Origin: an uncultured delta proteobacterium
Lineage (GTDB): Bacteria; Desulfobacterota; Desulfobulbia; Desulfobulbales; JAGXFP01
DNA length: 64,000 bases
Direction: 5' to 3'
NCBI GenBank assembly: GCA_963807225.1
Contig: CAWEAD010000005.1
Location: 544,456 to 608,455, forward strand
Shown here: piece after piece, positions 32,220 to 36,051 of the stretch
Layout of the letters: every line of letters begins with the position of its first letter
Numbering within the stretch: position 1 is the first letter of the stretch
Notes under the pieces: model-generated
The model's input: the letters and a program-made list of their open reading frames with translations, nothing else
Told to the model about the DNA's origin: nothing
The model's database searches: none
Position numbers and translations under genes: made by a program

Positions 32220-32818
32220 CTACCACTGCCTGCAGCCGTTCGCGGTGAAGAAAATTGTCCGGTCTTCCGTCACCAGGCAATGCATGAATTGATCATGCGG
32301 GGCCAGCGGCAGATTTCCAGTTGCCAGCTGCAGCTCAAAAGCCAGCCCGATCCGCAAGGCCCCGGGAGCTTCCAAAGCCAGAAATCGGTCATAGTAGCCG
32401 CCACCGTATCCCAATCTCCCCCCCGCAGGTCAAAGACAGCGCCGGGCACCACAACCGCCTCGATTTGGTCCGGAGGCACGGATCGGGTTCGAGCCGGATC
32501 GGGCTCCGGGATCCCGCAATATCCGGAGCGCAGTTCCCGGCCGGGATCTTCCACCAGATAGGGCAAGAGCTTTCTGCTTCCCGGTATGGACAGGGGCAGG
32601 GCCACGCGAACACCGGCCTCAAGGCACTTGGCAATGGCGGCGGCAGTCCGGACCTCGCTGCGGAAACTGGCGTAAAACATCACCGTCCGGCAGTCCGAAA
32701 ATTGGTTGATTTGCCAGAGCCGAGCTTCGATCTGCCGGCTTTTTTCTTCCAGGACCTGCCGGGGCATGCTGTCCCGAATCGCCAGAATTTCCCTCCGCAA
32801 CCGATCCCGATTGAACAT
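32220..32818 (-). pseudogene. fau: 5-formyltetrahydrofolate cyclo-ligase, frameshifted in a G7 run (32418-32424)
   Basis: Frame 1 ends VVPGAVFDLRG and frame 2 continues RLGYGGGYYDRFL. One extra G restores the canonical motif. Confidence 0.85.
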
Positions 32819-32946
32819 TTGAACTTTATCTGGCAACATTTAGTGCATATCCAAGAAGCAGGGGTTAGAATTTATTATGGATATCATTCTAGCCCTTACC
32901 CGTACTTTCCGCAAACCGCAATAGTTGGCAGGTTAGCTGCCACATC

Positions 32947-35900
32947 GTGAATATGAATCTCAAAATATCTTCCTTCACAGAGCACTGGCAGACCCACACT
33001 TTTAACCGCCAAACCATTCTCCTCAACCCTTCGCGCCCGGACTGGGTAGTACCCGGCACGGAAGCCGCCCGCTTGCTGGAGCATCCGTCCGTCGACCCGG
33101 TGCTGGCTTTGGCCCGAACCAGCCTGGAACACCAACTCTCCGGCCCTACCCCGGAACCCTACAGAGGTCGGGCGGCACATCTCTCCCTGACCCGCCTTAA
33201 GGAATGCTGGTTCCATCTGACCTCGCAATGCAACCTGACCTGTCGCCATTGCCTGTTCAGCTGTTCTCCGGCCTCCACCGTCAGCCTCGCCCCGGACCTC
33301 TTGGCGCAGGGCTTGCGGGAAAGCCGGGAACTGGGCTGTTCCCTCTTTTATTTTACCGGGGGTGAACCCTTTGTCTATCCCGAGTTCACGACTGTCCTGC
33401 AAGAACTCCTGAACGAGACGGACAACCATGCCGTGATCCTGACCAATGGCTTGCTGCTGGAGCAATACCTTACACCATTGGCCGCTCTTCCCCGGGAAAG
33501 GTTGCATCTGCAGATCAGCATGGACGGCCTGGAAGCGCAGCATGACAACCTGCGCGGCCAGGGCACCTTCCAGCGGCTGCTGAAAGTCCTCGCCCGTTTG
33601 CGGGAGCACGATTTCCAAGTCACCCTTTCGGTGGCGGTCAATCGGATCAACATCGACGATCTGCCGGCGCTTGTGGAACTGGCCGGTGATCTGGGAGTAG
33701 CCAGCCTCCACTTCCTTTGGCATTTTGTGCGGGGCAAAGGTAGCTCCGAACAGTTTGTCGAACCATCCCTGATTTTCCAGCAACTGATTCGGGTTCAGGA
33801 AGTGGCCGCCAACCGCGGGGTAATCATCGACAACATTGAAACCATTCGCAGCCAGGTGTTCAGTTCTCCCGGCACTAGATTCGATCTCAGCAATACCGGC
33901 TGGGAATCTCTGGCGATTGGCCCGGACGGTCACATCTACCCTTCCCCGGCCCTGGTCGGTATCCCGGAACTTGACTGTGGGTTCCTGACGCACGGCTTGC
34001 GCCAGTCCTGGCAGGATAGTCCGGTTATGAAAAATATCCGCCGCGCCTCCCTGATCGACTCTCCCGCCTTGGCCTCCCGGCCCTTGAGCTTGCTGGTTGG
34101 CGGCGGCGATCTCGACCACAGCTATCTGGCCGGTGGAGAGTTCGTCGGTCACGATCCCTACCTGGAACTTTATGAAGATCTGGCCCTTTGGCTGATCACC
34201 CGACAGGCCTCCCGTTACCCGGTCCGCAACCCGGCGGAAATCATCCTGCGGATGGGCGATGTCCGGCACGATTGTCCGGACGGCGGCCAGGCCGTTTCCC
34301 TGACCCACTGCAACTGCGTGATCTCCCTGCCCGATGCCACCGGGCACAAATCGGTCCGGGAATTTTACGGCCAGGCCGCCCTGCAAACCAATAACGAAAT
34401 CGTCAATCCCTTCGCGCCGATCCGGGATGGCCTGGAATTCATCCCCCTCAAATCCCGGCAAAGGTCGTACGGTTGCGGCAGCCCGGTGTTGGATGCGGCC
34501 CCGGCGCCTGGAGAAATCCTGGTTGATCTGGGCAGCGGCAGCGGCTTTGAATGTTTTGTGGCGGCCGGACAGGTTGGTCGAACCGGCAAAGTTTACGGAA
34601 TCGACATGACCCGGGAGATGCTGGAACTGTCCCGCGAATCGAAACGAAGCGTGGTCGAGGAGCTGGGCTATGACAATCTGGAATTCCGGCAGGGTTATCT
34701 TGAAGAACTTCCCCTGCCCGACGAACATGCCGATGTGGTTATTTCCAACTGCGTGATCAATCTCAGTCCGGATAAGCGGACCACCTTTCATGAGATTTAT
34801 CGGGTGCTTAAGCCGGGTGGCCGCCTGGTTGTCTCCGACATCACCACCGACCGGCCAATTCCGCTGACCATCAAGAATAACCAAAAATTCCGGGGCGAAT
34901 GTTTGGGCGGCGCCCTGCAGCAGGAACAATTACTGGCCATGCTCAGGGCCACCGGTTTTACCGAAGCCCGATTGATCAAGCGTTTTCCTTATCGAGAGGA
35001 AGACGGAACCAGATTTTTCTCATTGACCTTCAGTTGCCGAAAACCGCCGAAACCCGAGATCGGTCAGGAAGTAATCTACCGGGGCCCAATGGCGGCATTG
35101 ATGACCGAAACCGGGCAACTCATTTTCAAGGGACGCCCGATCCGTCTGGAAACCGACCTGGCCAACCAATTGGATGACTTCTTCCAACTGGATGAAAACG
35201 GTGCGGCGGTCAATCTCGCCACCACCGATTCTTGTGGTTGCGATCCGGTACCCCATACCTCGGGCGATTCCGCCGGCTGCTGTGCGCCCGTGCCCGAAAG
35301 CTCCGGCCGGTCACTGCCAATTATTCCGGCCGGCTTTATCGTCCAACCTCAAGTGCCGATGGTGAAACAGAAGCAAGATTGCCTGATTTGCGGGACCGAA
35401 CTTATCTATGCAAATCGGCCAAGCCCGGCAAATTGTCATTATTGCGGCAAGTGGGCTCAAGCGGAAATCGCTTGTCCGGAGCATTATGTCTGTGACCAAT
35501 GCCATCTGACCGACGGCCTGGCTGTTATACGGCAGGTCTGCACCACCACCGGCGAGCAGGATCTGCTGGCCCTCCTCCATCTGCTCCGTTCCCATCCGGC
35601 CCTGCCTCTGCACGGTCCGGAACATCATGCCCTGGTTCCCGGGGTAATCCTGGCGGCCTGGCGTAACTGCGGCGGCGCCGGCAGTGTGCAAGATATACAG
35701 ACCGCTATTGACCGGGGCAGCAAGATACCCGGCGGCGTCTGCGGCCTCTGGGGTAGTTGCGGGGCCGCACTGGGGGTGGGGATCGCCTTCGCGGTGATTC
35801 TCGAAGCCTCACCGTTGACCGCCGGACCGCGCCAGGAAGCGCAGCGGATCACGGCCCGGGTCATGAGCCGTATGGCTGCCAACCGGGCTCCCCGCTGCTG

Positions 35901-36051
35901 TCGGCGGGAAGCGTTGACTGCTTTACTGGAAGCCTCGGCCATCGCCCGGGAAAATTTCGGCCTGGAACTACCGGCCAGATACCAAGAAGGATGTGGACAA
36001 AAGGATCTTAACCGGGAGTGTCTCGGCAAGGCTTGCCCTTACTGGAAATAA
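32947..36051 (+). CDS. Multidomain protein: radical SAM + degenerate SPASM + ArsM-like As(III) methyltransferase + Cys-rich DUF5714-like domain
   Basis: CNLTCRHC; FTGGEP; YGCGSP; VDLGSGSG; GIDMT; VISNCVINL; GECLGGA; CLICG..CHYCG..C..H.VCDQCH; HGPEHH; PGGVCGLWGSCGAA; RCCRR. Confidence 0.85.
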   Translation: MNMNLKISSFTEHWQTHTFNRQTILLNPSRPDWVVPGTEAARLLEHPSVDPVLALARTSLEHQLSGPTPEPYRGRAAHLSLTRLKECWFHLTSQCNLTCRHCLFSCSPASTVSLAPDLLAQGLRESRELGCSLFYFTGGEPFVYPEFTTVLQELLNETDNHAVILTNGLLLEQYLTPLAALPRERLHLQISMDGLEAQHDNLRGQGTFQRLLKVLARLREHDFQVTLSVAVNRINIDDLPALVELAGDLGVASLHFLWHFVRGKGSSEQFVEPSLIFQQLIRVQEVAANRGVIIDNIETIRSQVFSSPGTRFDLSNTGWESLAIGPDGHIYPSPALVGIPELDCGFLTHGLRQSWQDSPVMKNIRRASLIDSPALASRPLSLLVGGGDLDHSYLAGGEFVGHDPYLELYEDLALWLITRQASRYPVRNPAEIILRMGDVRHDCPDGGQAVSLTHCNCVISLPDATGHKSVREFYGQAALQTNNEIVNPFAPIRDGLEFIPLKSRQRSYGCGSPVLDAAPAPGEILVDLGSGSGFECFVAAGQVGRTGKVYGIDMTREMLELSRESKRSVVEELGYDNLEFRQGYLEELPLPDEHADVVISNCVINLSPDKRTTFHEIYRVLKPGGRLVVSDITTDRPIPLTIKNNQKFRGECLGGALQQEQLLAMLRATGFTEARLIKRFPYREEDGTRFFSLTFSCRKPPKPEIGQEVIYRGPMAALMTETGQLIFKGRPIRLETDLANQLDDFFQLDENGAAVNLATTDSCGCDPVPHTSGDSAGCCAPVPESSGRSLPIIPAGFIVQPQVPMVKQKQDCLICGTELIYANRPSPANCHYCGKWAQAEIACPEHYVCDQCHLTDGLAVIRQVCTTTGEQDLLALLHLLRSHPALPLHGPEHHALVPGVILAAWRNCGGAGSVQDIQTAIDRGSKIPGGVCGLWGSCGAALGVGIAFAVILEASPLTAGPRQEAQRITARVMSRMAANRAPRCCRREALTALLEASAIARENFGLELPARYQEGCGQKDLNRECLGKACPYWK

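What the first reader, a model, noticed from the sequence alone, without database searches (positions are those of the whole stretch)
32947..36051. Radical SAM - ArsM - DUF5714 megafusion: candidate organoarsenical (or other metalloid) biosynthesis enzyme
Seen in sequence, in order: a radical SAM CxxxCxxC (about 33229-33252); a SPASM-like region whose Cys are replaced (YPS for YPC, VGGGD for CGGGC); an LTHCNC motif; a methyltransferase with YGCG (Cys codon 34474), SNCVINL (34750) and GECLGGA (34900); a linker with vicinal Cys (SCGC, GCC); and a Cys/His-rich C-terminal domain. Established knowledge: those three Cys match the As(III)-binding Cys72/174/224 of Cyanidioschyzon ArsM. Radical SAM plus ArsM pairs make arsinothricin (ArsL/ArsM) and arsenosugars (ArsS/ArsM). 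Inference: one polypeptide performs both radical As-C bond formation and As methylation, with Cys-rich parts shuttling As(III). No arsR/arsB/arsC genes are nearby, so the substrate could be another thiophilic metal(loid).
Basis: partly seen in the sequence, partly recalled or inferred. Interest (0 to 1): 0.85.

Follow-up and report, generated by a model that had tools for sequence, protein, structure and literature searches.

The report
Radical SAM-ArsM-DUF5714 fusion enzyme
This is a real, conserved but unstudied three-part enzyme that joins a radical enzyme to an arsenic-type methyltransferase, and across its bacterial order it takes the place of ArsS, the enzyme known to start arsenic-sugar synthesis, so it probably marks an undescribed way for oxygen-avoiding sulfur bacteria to make carbon-arsenic compounds.

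Summary
ORF 32947-36051 (+) encodes an intact 1034-aa protein. In order, it has an RRE-like N-terminus, a radical SAM core with a cysteine-depleted SPASM region, a complete ArsM/AS3MT-type methyltransferase, a disordered linker with two vicinal Cys pairs, and a zinc-ribbon plus DUF5714 domain.

C510, C602 and C652 align to CmArsM Cys72, Cys174 and Cys224. The methyltransferase domain clusters with crystallised ArsM/AS3MT in a tree. About 30 Cys are invariant in 120 full-length homologues.

The radical SAM half is not ArsS (48.8 bits, cut-off 300) and not ArsL (no hit). It is a small clade derived from peptide-maturase-type SPASM enzymes and is found almost only fused to ArsM.

The main new evidence comes from 151 genomes of the order:
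- 73 have the fusion, 45 have ArsS, and only 2 have both.
- 110 of the 116 genomes with either one carry the TIGR04283 "arsenosugar" glycosyltransferase. This genome carries the TIGR04282/TIGR04283 pair.
- In two divergent lineages that pair lies directly upstream of the fusion on the same strand.

The best reading is a non-orthologous stand-in for ArsM plus ArsS. The chemistry and the element (As or Se) are untested.

The parts
32947..36051 (+). Whole gene: 1034-aa radical SAM / ArsM-type methyltransferase / DUF5714 fusion (GTG start; alternative ATG at 32953)
32947..33201 (+). N-terminal ~85 residues with a beta-beta-beta-alpha-alpha pattern; RRE/PqqD-like by inference
   Evidence: The AF2 secondary structure is. 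Foldseek aligns 466 columns to the RRE-bearing sactisynthase CteB 5wgg. Relative P0341 has a PqqD hit of 29.5 bits against a cut-off of 23.4 at the same position. This protein itself gives no Pfam hit.
33202..33846 (+). Radical SAM core. The cluster motif C95-x3-C99-x2-C102 is at 33229-33252; the GGEP motif and other SAM-binding motifs are invariant.
   Evidence: Pfam PF04055 at 2.4e-18; invariant columns; structural matches to anSME, PqqE and SkfB.
33859..34344 (+). Degenerate SPASM/twitch region. The canonical auxiliary-cluster Cys are lost (YPS, VGGGD). The remaining conserved Cys are C344 (33976), C443 (34273) and C455/C457 (34309-34317, in HCNC).
   Evidence: Alignment with SPASM-bearing relatives. 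C443 and C457 are near-invariant in all forms. C87, C344 and C455 are invariant only in three-domain forms.
34345..35217 (+). ArsM/AS3MT-type SAM methyltransferase including the ArsM C-terminal domain. Metalloid-binding triad: C510 (34474), C602 (34750), C652 (34900).
   Evidence: phmmer against PDB: 5evj 1.2e-40, 8xt7 2.8e-35, 4fr0 5e-32, with Cys72/174/224 aligned. Foldseek top hits are ArsM structures. Tree clade with PDB ArsMs has SH-aLRT 97.
35218..35376 (+). Disordered Cys-rich linker or tail with two conserved Cys pairs: C763/C765 (35233-35241) and C778/C779 (35278-35283).
   Evidence: pLDDT is below 50 for residues 759-810. The Cys are invariant. Two-domain homologues end in the same kind of CC-bearing tail.
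35377..36048 (+). Zinc-ribbon-like CxxC...CxxC / CxxHxxCxxCH module followed by the helical DUF5714 core (HGPEHH, GGxCGxxGxCGA, RCC, C...C...C).
   Evidence: PF18978 at 4.6e-57 over the full profile. MbdU selenoprotein model at 2.4e-43. Invariant residues. hhalign to C_GCAxxG_C_C gives probability 71.6%, E 3.5e-5.

Best explanation
The gene encodes a self-contained organo-metalloid enzyme. It stands in, without being related by descent, for the ArsM + ArsS pair at the head of the 'arsenosugar-type' pathway defined by the TIGR04282/TIGR04283 glycosyltransferases.

Proposed mechanism:
1. Trivalent arsenic is captured by thiolates. The candidates are the flexible tail's vicinal Cys pairs and, where present, the DUF5714 domain.
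2. The arsenic is handed to the ArsM-type site (C510/C602/C652) and methylated with SAM.
3. The methylated As(III) then moves to the radical SAM domain, whose SPASM auxiliary-cluster cysteines have been lost and partly replaced by a C443/C455/C457 set. There a SAM-derived carbon radical, most simply 5'-deoxyadenosyl as in ArsS, adds to arsenic to form a new As-C bond.
4. The product feeds the TIGR04282/TIGR04283 enzymes encoded elsewhere in this genome.

Shown here: the domain identities, the Cys conservation, the exclusivity with ArsS, and the co-occurrence and occasional operon linkage with TIGR04282/TIGR04283.

Inferred: the order of steps, the role of the tail and DUF5714 as carrier or redox partner, the nature of the radical, and arsenic as the element.
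For: (1) ArsM identity. The three As-binding Cys align to CmArsM C72/C174/C224. ArsM crystal structures are the top sequence and fold matches. All 24 fusion methyltransferase domains fall in an SH-aLRT 97 clade with CmArsM, CrArsM and human AS3MT. The triad is kept in every fusion examined.

(2) Dedicated partnership. Relatives of the radical SAM half, down to 33% identity, are almost all fused to this methyltransferase. Only 115 clusters in 1.84 billion representatives reach E<=1e-30. The 'standalone' copies are followed by an overlapping methyltransferase gene.

(3) Phyletic pattern in 151 genomes of the order. The fusion is in 73, ArsS (TIGR04167 over cut-off) in 45, both in 2 and neither in 35 (odds ratio 0.023). 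By genus the counts are 26 fusion only, 20 ArsS only, 2 both and 11 neither, and both states occur in 7 of 17 families. TIGR04283 is present in 110 of the 116 genomes with either enzyme, against 14 of 35 without.

(4) This genome has no ArsS (best 49 bits) but does have adjacent TIGR04282 (203.8 bits, cut-off 134) and TIGR04283 (249.9 bits, cut-off 182) genes. The fusion is its only ArsM-type protein with the full triad.

(5) Gene order. TIGR04283-TIGR04282-fusion (L018) and DedA-TIGR04282-TIGR04283-fusion (L019) are contiguous on one strand. The pair is within about 4 kb of the fusion in L119 and L121. In ArsS genomes the same glycosyltransferases sit 1-5 kb from ArsS.

(6) Precedents. ArsS adenosylates DMAs(III) to DDMAA (PMC13598754). 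ArsL binds As(III) with a flexible C-terminal RCCLKC tail rather than an Fe-S cluster (bioRxiv 10.1101/2024.02.01.577332). Two-domain homologues here always end in CC-bearing tails.
Against: - No biochemical datum exists for any member, and no paper was found.
- The radical SAM domain is unrelated to ArsS and ArsL beyond the core. Its nearest characterised relatives all act on peptides or proteins.
- The gene is not in an ars operon. In this genome it is monocistronic among housekeeping genes, 504 kb from TIGR04282/TIGR04283.
- The ArsM Cys44-equivalent is absent at the homologous position.
- The arsenosugar role of TIGR04282/TIGR04283 is itself a naming inference, not an experiment.
- The exclusivity statistics are not phylogeny-corrected.
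- Selenium-linked neighbours and selenoprotein relatives keep Se in play.
Confidence: 0.55

Rival explanations
1. Same enzyme logic, but the physiological substrate is selenium (or tellurium or antimony) rather than arsenic. The ArsM-type triad binds a selenide or selenotrisulfide-like species. The enzyme would make methylated or alkylated organoselenium compounds, and the TIGR04282/TIGR04283/ArsS-type system in anaerobes would be selenium-related.
For: - The closest NCBIfam relatives of the methyltransferase and DUF5714 parts are selenoprotein families: ArsM/AhpD, ArsM/DUF2284 and MbdU.
- ArsS in this order nearly always carries an in-frame TGA.
- In G020 a 'selenium metabolism-associated LysR' regulator (302.9 bits, cut-off 250) and a 'dicluster near Sec' oxidoreductase lie between the fusion and TIGR04282/TIGR04283.
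- DedA and MerA-like FAD disulfide reductase genes recur next to the fusion.
- An ArsM-SelD fusion is reported in Naegleria (PMC5552862).
Against: - Every experimentally characterised member of the methyltransferase clade methylates arsenic (PDB entries).
- ArsS activity has been shown with DMAs(III) (PMC13598754).
- Selenoprotein status of an enzyme shows that it uses Se as a catalytic residue, not that Se is its substrate.
- Only one locus shows the Se-named regulator.
Confidence: 0.15
2. The radical SAM half still works as a peptide or protein maturase, as its ancestry suggests. It would modify the enzyme's own Cys-rich tail or DUF5714 domain, or a separate protein (for example a thioether or formylglycine-type change). 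The methyltransferase would methylate a thiol or a cofactor. No free organo-metalloid would be made.
For: - The best family and fold matches are the SPASM enzymes ScmE/F, AlbA, PqqE, MftC, CteB, anSME, SkfB and SuiB.
- Divergent relatives keep PqqD/RRE and SPASM domains.
- An RRE-like N-terminus and a conserved disordered Cys-rich segment sit in the same polypeptide.
Against: - The SPASM auxiliary-cluster cysteines that such maturases need are lost here.
- No precursor-peptide gene is conserved nearby.
- The ArsM triad is invariant, which a simple thiol methylase would not require.
- This reading does not explain the exclusivity with ArsS or the linkage to TIGR04282/TIGR04283.
Confidence: 0.12
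3. It is a metallocofactor maturation module related to the TrsS / DVU_1551-1557 system. In this reading, radical SAM + ArsM-related methyltransferase + DUF5714 would build or modify a Mo/W- or Fe-S-type cofactor.
For: - A standalone DUF5714 gene sits inside a TrsS cluster with the DVU_1557, DVU_1556 methyltransferase, DVU_1553 ligase and MocA-like genes.
- The DVU_1556 methyltransferase keeps Cys aligned to C602 and C652.
- Another DUF5714 gene lies among NifB-like, BATS, NifU and Mrp-like genes.
Against: - The fusion's radical SAM scores 34 bits against TrsS, whose cut-off is 490.
- Its methyltransferase groups with true ArsMs, far from DVU_1556, which was the outgroup on a branch of length 10.
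- No CoA-ligase or NTP-transferase partners accompany the fusion.
- Two-domain forms lack DUF5714 altogether.
Confidence: 0.06
4. It is an ordinary arsenic-detoxifying ArsM whose extra domains only supply electrons or thiol reduction. The radical SAM-derived part would act as an Fe-S redox module and DUF5714 as a built-in disulfide reductase, with no radical chemistry on the substrate.
For: - ArsM catalysis needs a disulfide-reducing partner (established knowledge).
- DUF5714 is distantly similar to the 'putative redox-active' C_GCAxxG_C_C family.
- Other anaerobe ArsM-like proteins are fused to AhpD or DUF2284 redox domains.
Against: - All SAM-binding motifs of the radical SAM core (CxxxCxxC, GGEP and others) are invariant in 120 homologues, which argues for real SAM cleavage.
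- This reading does not explain why the fusion excludes ArsS rather than ArsM.
- There is no ars-operon context.
Confidence: 0.07

Closest known systems
ArsM / AS3MT As(III) S-adenosylmethionine methyltransferases (CmArsM 4FR0/4FS8/4FSD, CrArsM 5EVJ, human AS3MT 8XT7)
   Same: Residues 467-757 share the fold, the SAM motifs, the C-terminal domain and the three As(III)-binding cysteines (C72/C174/C224 equivalents). They cluster with these enzymes in a tree.
   Different: The Cys44-equivalent is missing at the homologous position. The domain is embedded between a radical SAM domain and a Cys-rich tail plus DUF5714. The score is below NCBIfam PRK11873's cut-off (223 against 263) because the N-terminal 62 profile positions are not matched. 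The gene is not in an ars operon.
ArsS + ArsM, the first steps of arsenosugar biosynthesis (ArsS = TIGR04167 radical SAM (seleno)protein, which adenosylates DMAs(III) to DDMAA)
   Same: It pairs a radical SAM enzyme with an ArsM. It co-occurs with the same TIGR04282/TIGR04283 glycosyltransferases, occupies the same operon position next to them in L018 and L019, and is mutually exclusive with ArsS across the order.
   Different: The radical SAM domain is not an ArsS homologue (48.8 bits against 300, core only) and lacks ArsS's Cys/Sec-rich C-terminal domain. It comes from the SPASM/RRE lineage. The two activities are on one polypeptide. No adjacent purine nucleoside phosphorylase was seen in fusion loci.
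ArsL + ArsM of arsinothricin biosynthesis (ArsL = RCCLKC-tail radical SAM, NF040542)
   Same: A radical SAM enzyme works with an ArsM. A flexible Cys-rich tail with vicinal cysteines is present; in ArsL that tail binds As(III) (bioRxiv 10.1101/2024.02.01.577332). The CC-bearing tail is conserved here.
   Different: There is no detectable match to NF040542. The tail motif differs (SCxC...xCC rather than RCCLKC) and follows the methyltransferase, not the radical SAM domain. No arsQ-type permease context was seen.
SPASM/twitch radical SAM maturases with an RRE (CteB, AlbA, PqqE, MftC, anSME, SkfB, SuiB)
   Same: These are the best fold and profile matches for residues 1-466. Divergent clade members keep PqqD and SPASM domains.
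   Different: The canonical auxiliary-cluster cysteines are lost in this protein. There is no precursor peptide gene. The domain is permanently fused to an ArsM.
MbdU 'metal-binding double selenoprotein' (NF045648) and the C_GCAxxG_C_C family (PF09719)
   Same: Residues 775-1034 align to MbdU positions 5-267 (E 2.4e-43). The CGAxxG and CC motifs of DUF5714 align with those of C_GCAxxG_C_C (hhalign probability 71.6%).
   Different: The score is far below the MbdU cut-off (149 against 600). This protein has Cys, not Sec. The relation to PF09719 is only suggestive. None of these families has a known function or a solved structure.

Membership tests
ArsM / AS3MT arsenite methyltransferase | Three conserved As(III)-binding cysteines (CmArsM Cys72, Cys174, Cys224) | tested here: met
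   C510, C602 and C652 align to chain residues 72, 174 and 224 of 4fr0. They are invariant in 120 homologues and in all fusion forms.
ArsM / AS3MT arsenite methyltransferase | Class I SAM-methyltransferase fold plus the ArsM C-terminal domain; closest structures are ArsMs | tested here: met
   Foldseek ranks 1-13 are all ArsM/AS3MT (E down to 4.7e-19). phmmer against PDB gives 1.2e-40. NF040538 aligns to residues 591-754.
ArsM / AS3MT arsenite methyltransferase | Phylogenetic placement within the ArsM radiation | tested here: met
   A quick ML tree of 98 sequences puts the fusion domains with the three PDB ArsMs in a clade with SH-aLRT 97, nested among triad-bearing ArsM-like sequences. There were no bootstraps, and the PDB rows are long branches.
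ArsM / AS3MT arsenite methyltransferase | Fourth conserved Cys (CmArsM Cys44), used in the disulfide cascade for the first methylation | tested here: not met
   There is no Cys between the VREFYG helix and YGCG, where CrArsM has it. The HCNC motif 53-55 residues upstream might substitute, but that is inference.
ArsM / AS3MT arsenite methyltransferase | Score over the curated NCBIfam cut-off (PRK11873, 263 bits) | tested here: not met
   The score is 223 bits and matches only profile positions 63-242 of 272.
ArsM / AS3MT arsenite methyltransferase | SAM-dependent methylation of As(III)/MAs(III) | not testable with these tools
   This needs an enzyme assay or arsenic speciation.
ArsS (TIGR04167, arsenosugar radical SAM) | Match to the family model over its cut-off, including the C-terminal Cys/Sec-rich domain | tested here: not met
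   The score is 48.8 bits against a cut-off of 300, and only model positions 5-148 (the generic core) are matched. No such domain appears in the Pfam scan.
ArsS (TIGR04167, arsenosugar radical SAM) | Genomic association with the TIGR04282/TIGR04283 glycosyltransferases | tested here: met
   70 of 73 fusion genomes have TIGR04283, against 42 of 45 ArsS genomes. The genes are contiguous in L018 and L019. This genome has the pair.
ArsL (NF040542, RCCLKC-tail radical SAM) | Match to the family model; RCCLKC C-terminal tail | tested here: not met
   The fusion gene gives no match at E<=0.01. The tail motif is different, although it is also rich in vicinal Cys.
SPASM/twitch radical SAM maturases | CxxxCxxC radical SAM core | tested here: met
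   C95/C99/C102 are invariant.
SPASM/twitch radical SAM maturases | SPASM Cys motif (CX2CX5CX3C plus upstream Cys) that ligates auxiliary clusters | tested here: not met
   These Cys are replaced in this protein (SLAIG, ALASRPLSLLVGGGD). The motif is present as CX2CX5CGGGD in relatives P0338, P0339, P0341 and P0343. Pfam SPASM scores 35 bits in P0339.
SPASM/twitch radical SAM maturases | N-terminal RRE (PqqD-like) peptide-binding domain | tested here: inconclusive
   Residues 1-90 give no Pfam hit. The AF2 secondary structure fits, and the alignment to CteB spans 466 columns. P0341 is above the PqqD cut-off.
DUF5714 (PF18978) | Full-length match over the gathering score | tested here: met
   192.8 bits against 26.2, residues 861-1033, profile positions 1-173 of 173. 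It is the only copy in the genome.
TrsS / DVU_1551-1557 system | TrsS-type radical SAM with DVU_1556 methyltransferase, DVU_1553 ligase and DVU_1551 NTP transferase partners | tested here: not met
   The fusion's radical SAM scores 34.2 bits against a cut-off of 490, and no TrsS is present in this genome. The partner genes are absent from fusion loci.

The most novel reading that the evidence does not exclude
The fusion is a carrier-arm assembly line for metalloids. A radical SAM domain that evolved from RRE-SPASM peptide maturases now uses the enzyme's own flexible, vicinal-cysteine tail as a swinging arm, with DUF5714 as loading or redox module. The arm carries thiolate-bound As(III) (or Se) from an ArsM active site to a radical site, where lost Fe-S ligands have been replaced by a metalloid-binding Cys set. 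The product would be an As-C compound made by an ArsS-independent route in anaerobic sulfur-cycling bacteria, including relatives of cable bacteria. The product may be DDMAA or a new organoarsenical that TIGR04282/TIGR04283 then process.
Probability: 0.25. Interest if true: 0.85.

Novelty: new variant of a known kind. Interest (0 to 1): 0.72.

Why it matters
Only two radical routes to carbon-arsenic bonds are known: ArsS for arsenosugars and ArsL for arsinothricin. Each works with a separate ArsM. This family would be a third, independently evolved partnership. It is covalently fused and is built on a peptide-maturase scaffold that has lost its auxiliary clusters.

It is the prevalent form in Desulfobulbales, present in 73 of 151 sampled genomes, and it is scattered across Desulfobacterota (20 of 201 genera). 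These organisms live at sulfide-oxidant interfaces in sediments and paddy-type soils, where arsenic speciation matters.

If the reading is right, anaerobes make complex organoarsenicals by an unrecognised enzyme, and current arsM/arsS gene surveys misread these genomes. It would also give the first functional handle on DUF5714 and, by extension, on MbdU and C_GCAxxG_C_C-type domains.

The hypothesis can be tested directly with one expressed protein.

Tried and rejected
- A single-sequence AlphaFold run of the C-terminal 235 residues gave pLDDT 40 and was useless. I should have supplied an alignment. As a result no fold search of DUF5714 alone was possible, and the whole-protein Foldseek list was filled by ArsM and radical SAM hits.
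- The search for related loci with the single protein found nothing. The alignment-based scan was swamped by generic ArsMs matching the ISNCVINLS pattern.
- Guessing NCBIfam accessions failed. NF040537 does not exist, and NF040540 is FosA5, which wasted one genome search. The right ArsL accession came from the ArsL preprint.
- A profile search of DUF5714 against PDB sequences gave only weak zinc-ribbon matches, such as HypA at E about 0.1.
- I considered that the fusion belongs to the TrsS/DVU_1551-1557 system because a DUF5714 gene sits in one such cluster. I rejected this for the fusion itself.
- I checked whether ArsS in G141 occupies the fusion's syntenic slot. Only mutM is shared, so this is not evidence.
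- Literature searches for DUF5714, and for radical SAM + ArsM + Desulfobulb*, returned nothing. The Haft & Tolstoy 2025 paper that defines MbdU and TrsS is not held.

Full report
**Observation.** The window holds one uninterrupted ORF, 32947..36051 on the + strand, encoding 1034 aa. Pfam finds three domains in order: Radical_SAM (res 91-246, 2.4e-18), Methyltransf_31 (res 523-670, 3.3e-33) and DUF5714 (res 861-1033, 4.6e-57, full profile length). The start may be GTG 32947 or the ATG two codons later; neither has a strong RBS.

**The fusion is real.** At least 120 full-length proteins (about 1020-1120 aa, 52-83% identical) from independent assemblies share the three domains. They include Desulfurivibrio alkaliphilus, D. 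dismutans, Thiovibrio and many Desulfobulbaceae MAGs. A MAFFT alignment of these 120 shows about 30 invariant cysteines:
- 87, 95, 99, 102
- 344, 443, 455, 457
- 510, 536, 602, 652
- 763, 765, 778, 779
- fifteen in the C-terminal domain

In a sample of 151 genomes of the same order, 73 carry the gene. Across the phylum the radical SAM half is found in 23 of 301 genomes and 20 of 201 genera, in frames of about 1000-1200 aa.

**Methyltransferase domain.** phmmer against PDB sequences gives Chlamydomonas ArsM 5evj (1.2e-40), human AS3MT 8xt7 (2.8e-35) and Cyanidioschyzon ArsM 4fr0 (5e-32). Counting along the printed 4fr0 chain shows C510 = Cys72, C602 = Cys174 and C652 = Cys224. The match continues into the ArsM C-terminal domain, to about residue 757.

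An AlphaFold model of the whole protein (40-sequence alignment, pLDDT 80, pTM 0.68) has ArsM/AS3MT structures as Foldseek ranks 1-13. In a quick ML tree of 98 sequences, all 24 fusion methyltransferase domains sit with the three crystallised ArsMs in a clade with SH-aLRT 97, nested among triad-bearing ArsM-like sequences. A DVU_1556 methyltransferase served as a distant outgroup.

There are two shortfalls. The Cys44-equivalent is absent at its homologous position. The PRK11873 score (223 bits) is below the cut-off of 263 because the N-terminal profile positions are unmatched.

This genome has two other ArsM-like genes. Both carry an in-frame TGA at the third-Cys position, have Gly at the second position and have no Cys at the first. 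The fusion is therefore the only canonical-triad ArsM in the genome. Acr3 is on another contig.

**Radical SAM half.** The best NCBIfam matches are SPASM-type enzymes (Rv1681 family, ScmE/ScmF, AlbA, MftC, PqqE, NirJ and others), all far below their cut-offs. The best folds are CteB (466 aligned columns), anSMEcpe (TM 0.72-0.76), PqqE, SkfB and SuiB.

The canonical SPASM cysteines are gone here. More divergent relatives (P0338, P0339, P0341, P0343) keep Cx2Cx5CGGGD, a Pfam SPASM hit (35 bits) and an N-terminal PqqD/RRE hit (29.5 bits against a cut-off of 23.4). The lineage therefore descends from RRE-rSAM-SPASM peptide maturases. All SAM-binding motifs are invariant, so real SAM cleavage is expected.

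The domain is not ArsS: TIGR04167 scores 48.8 bits against 300 and matches only the generic core. It is not ArsL: NF040542 gives no hit. It is not TrsS: 34 bits against 490.

The clade is small and dedicated. Only 115 of 1.84 billion representative clusters reach E<=1e-30. Almost all relatives down to 33% identity are fused to the ArsM-type domain, and two-domain forms of about 790-815 aa are common. Apparent standalone copies are followed by an overlapping methyltransferase gene.

**Tail and DUF5714.** Residues 759-810 are predicted to be disordered and carry the invariant C763/C765 and C778/C779 pairs. Two-domain homologues stop just after such motifs (for example ...DSCCSP...DCCSQP...*), and 43 of them end in tails with CC, CCC or CxC. 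The Cys-rich tail therefore belongs to the rSAM-ArsM core. ArsL offers a direct precedent: its flexible C-terminal RCCLKC motif binds the As(III) substrate and not an Fe-S cluster (bioRxiv 10.1101/2024.02.01.577332).

C87, C344 and C455 are invariant only when DUF5714 is present. This could reflect an inter-domain site or simply lineage.

DUF5714 also exists as a standalone protein of about 235-250 aa in bacteria and archaea. Its invariant residues form two zinc-knuckle-like motifs plus HGPEHH, GGxCGxxGxCGA, RCC and three C-terminal Cys. It aligns to the MbdU selenoprotein model and, suggestively, to C_GCAxxG_C_C (hhalign probability 71.6%, E 3.5e-5). No solved structure is related by sequence, and no paper mentions it. 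One standalone copy sits in a TrsS/DVU_1551-1557 cluster and another among Fe-S assembly genes. That fits a general thiol or metal-handling role.

**Context.** In this genome the gene is monocistronic, lying between a 5-formyl-THF cyclo-ligase gene and RDD/mutM/bioF/bioB/pcnB. This order is kept in Thiovibrio and many relatives, which indicates vertical inheritance and no local operon.

Some neighbours do recur elsewhere:
- DedA/TVP38 genes occur in about nine distinct loci, in several arrangements.
- A MerA-like FAD disulfide reductase occurs in four loci.
- A 200-aa membrane protein lies directly upstream in four loci.

**Decisive comparative test.** Earlier notes of this scan, which are unchecked leads, suggested a link to the arsenosugar gene set. 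I tested this on the same 151 genomes.
- TIGR04283 is over its cut-off in 124 genomes, including this one.
- ArsS (TIGR04167) is over its cut-off in 44 genomes and matches at E<=1e-50 in 45. It is not found in this genome.
- Fusion and ArsS: 2 genomes have both, 71 the fusion only, 43 ArsS only and 35 neither (odds ratio 0.023).
- Either enzyme against TIGR04283: 110 / 6 / 14 / 21 (odds ratio 27).
- By genus: 26 fusion only, 20 ArsS only, 2 both and 11 neither. Both states occur within 7 of 17 families, and even within one genus. The pattern is therefore not a single deep split, although it is not formally phylogeny-corrected.

NCBIfam confirms adjacent TIGR04282 (203.8 bits against 134) and TIGR04283 (249.9 bits against 182) genes in this genome. 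It also confirms a TIGR04282/TIGR04283 - purine nucleoside phosphorylase - ArsS cluster in an ArsS-bearing relative.

In two divergent lineages the glycosyltransferase pair lies immediately upstream of the fusion on the same strand: L018 (TIGR04283-TIGR04282-fusion) and L019 (DedA-TIGR04282-TIGR04283-fusion). In L119 and L121 the pair is within about 4 kb.

**Interpretation.** ArsS adenosylates DMAs(III), the product of ArsM, to DDMAA (PMC13598754). A polypeptide that contains an ArsM and a dedicated radical SAM domain, replaces ArsS phyletically and shares ArsS's glycosyltransferase partners is most simply a non-orthologous stand-in for ArsM + ArsS.

I propose thiolate capture of As(III) by the tail or DUF5714, methylation at the C510/C602/C652 site, and then radical C-As bond formation in the SPASM-derived domain. 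In that domain the C443/C455/C457 set may hold the metalloid where an auxiliary cluster once sat. These steps are inferred, not shown.

Rival readings remain:
- Selenium as the substrate. This is suggested by the selenoprotein relatives, by a selenium-associated LysR regulator next to the fusion in one genome, and by Sec in ArsS.
- Retained peptide-maturase chemistry.
- A Trs-like cofactor role.
- A purely redox role for the extra domains.

**Verdict.** The family is uncharacterised and unpublished as far as the held library shows. I class it as a new variant of a known kind, the radical SAM + ArsM partnerships.

Noticed in passing
window 32270-32839 (-), shift near 32405-32417: The 5-formyltetrahydrofolate cyclo-ligase gene just upstream is frameshifted. 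Homologues align in frame -3 up to ...VFDLRGG and continue in frame -2 from GGGYYDRFL. This is either a pseudogene or an assembly indel at the catalytic motif.
   Followed up: partly
L003 (G000:C11:129157-129801 -) and L004 (G000:C8:404907-405629 -): These are two standalone ArsM-like genes in the same genome, each with one in-frame TGA at the third As-binding Cys position (WSQ-U-IGG, WFS-U-IAG). Both have Gly instead of Cys at the second position (SNG, ING). They are probably UxxG-type selenoprotein methyltransferases with a non-canonical site.
   Followed up: partly
L094:1627-6366: In a metagenome contig, a standalone DUF5714 gene sits inside a complete TrsS/DVU_1551-1557 cluster (DVU_1557 redox protein, TrsS, DVU_1556 methyltransferase, DVU_1553 ligase, DUF5714, MocA-like transferase). 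From memory, the DVU_1555 slot normally holds a C-GCAxxG-C-C protein, and the DUF5714 gene appears to sit where I would expect it; I did not check this. The DVU_1556 methyltransferase keeps Cys aligned with ArsM Cys174 and Cys224.
   Followed up: partly
order-wide ArsS hits, e.g. G009:C123:3951-4856, G141:C142:40374-41273: Nearly all ArsS (TIGR04167) genes in this order carry one in-frame TGA, so they are selenoproteins. The fusion that replaces them uses only Cys.
   Followed up: no
L119:6036-6947 (+) and L119:3469-5310 (-): In G020 a 'selenium metabolism-associated LysR' regulator (302.9 bits, cut-off 250) is divergent from the fusion. A dicluster-binding/DedA fusion protein lies between the fusion and a fused TIGR04282/TIGR04283 gene.
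   Followed up: partly
L145:7876-8697 (+): A purine nucleoside phosphorylase gene lies between the fused TIGR04282/TIGR04283 gene and ArsS. It is a plausible enzyme for removing adenine from DDMAA. No such gene was seen next to the fusion.
   Followed up: partly
L092:6143-6769, L117:6364-6969, L118:6125-6721, L120:5707-6381: A conserved multi-pass membrane protein of about 200 aa, with no Pfam hit on record (L092) and a Pro-rich C-terminus, lies directly upstream of the fusion on the same strand in two families.
   Followed up: no
P0416, P0419, P0420 (proteins of 705-718 aa): Some distant relatives carry this radical SAM domain in the C-terminal half (residues about 320-710) behind an unidentified 320-aa N-terminal part, which is a different domain order.
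   Followed up: no
L146:9805-12262: In G141, ArsS lies next to mutM, the gene that follows the fusion in many genomes. No other neighbour is shared, so this may be coincidence.
   Followed up: yes
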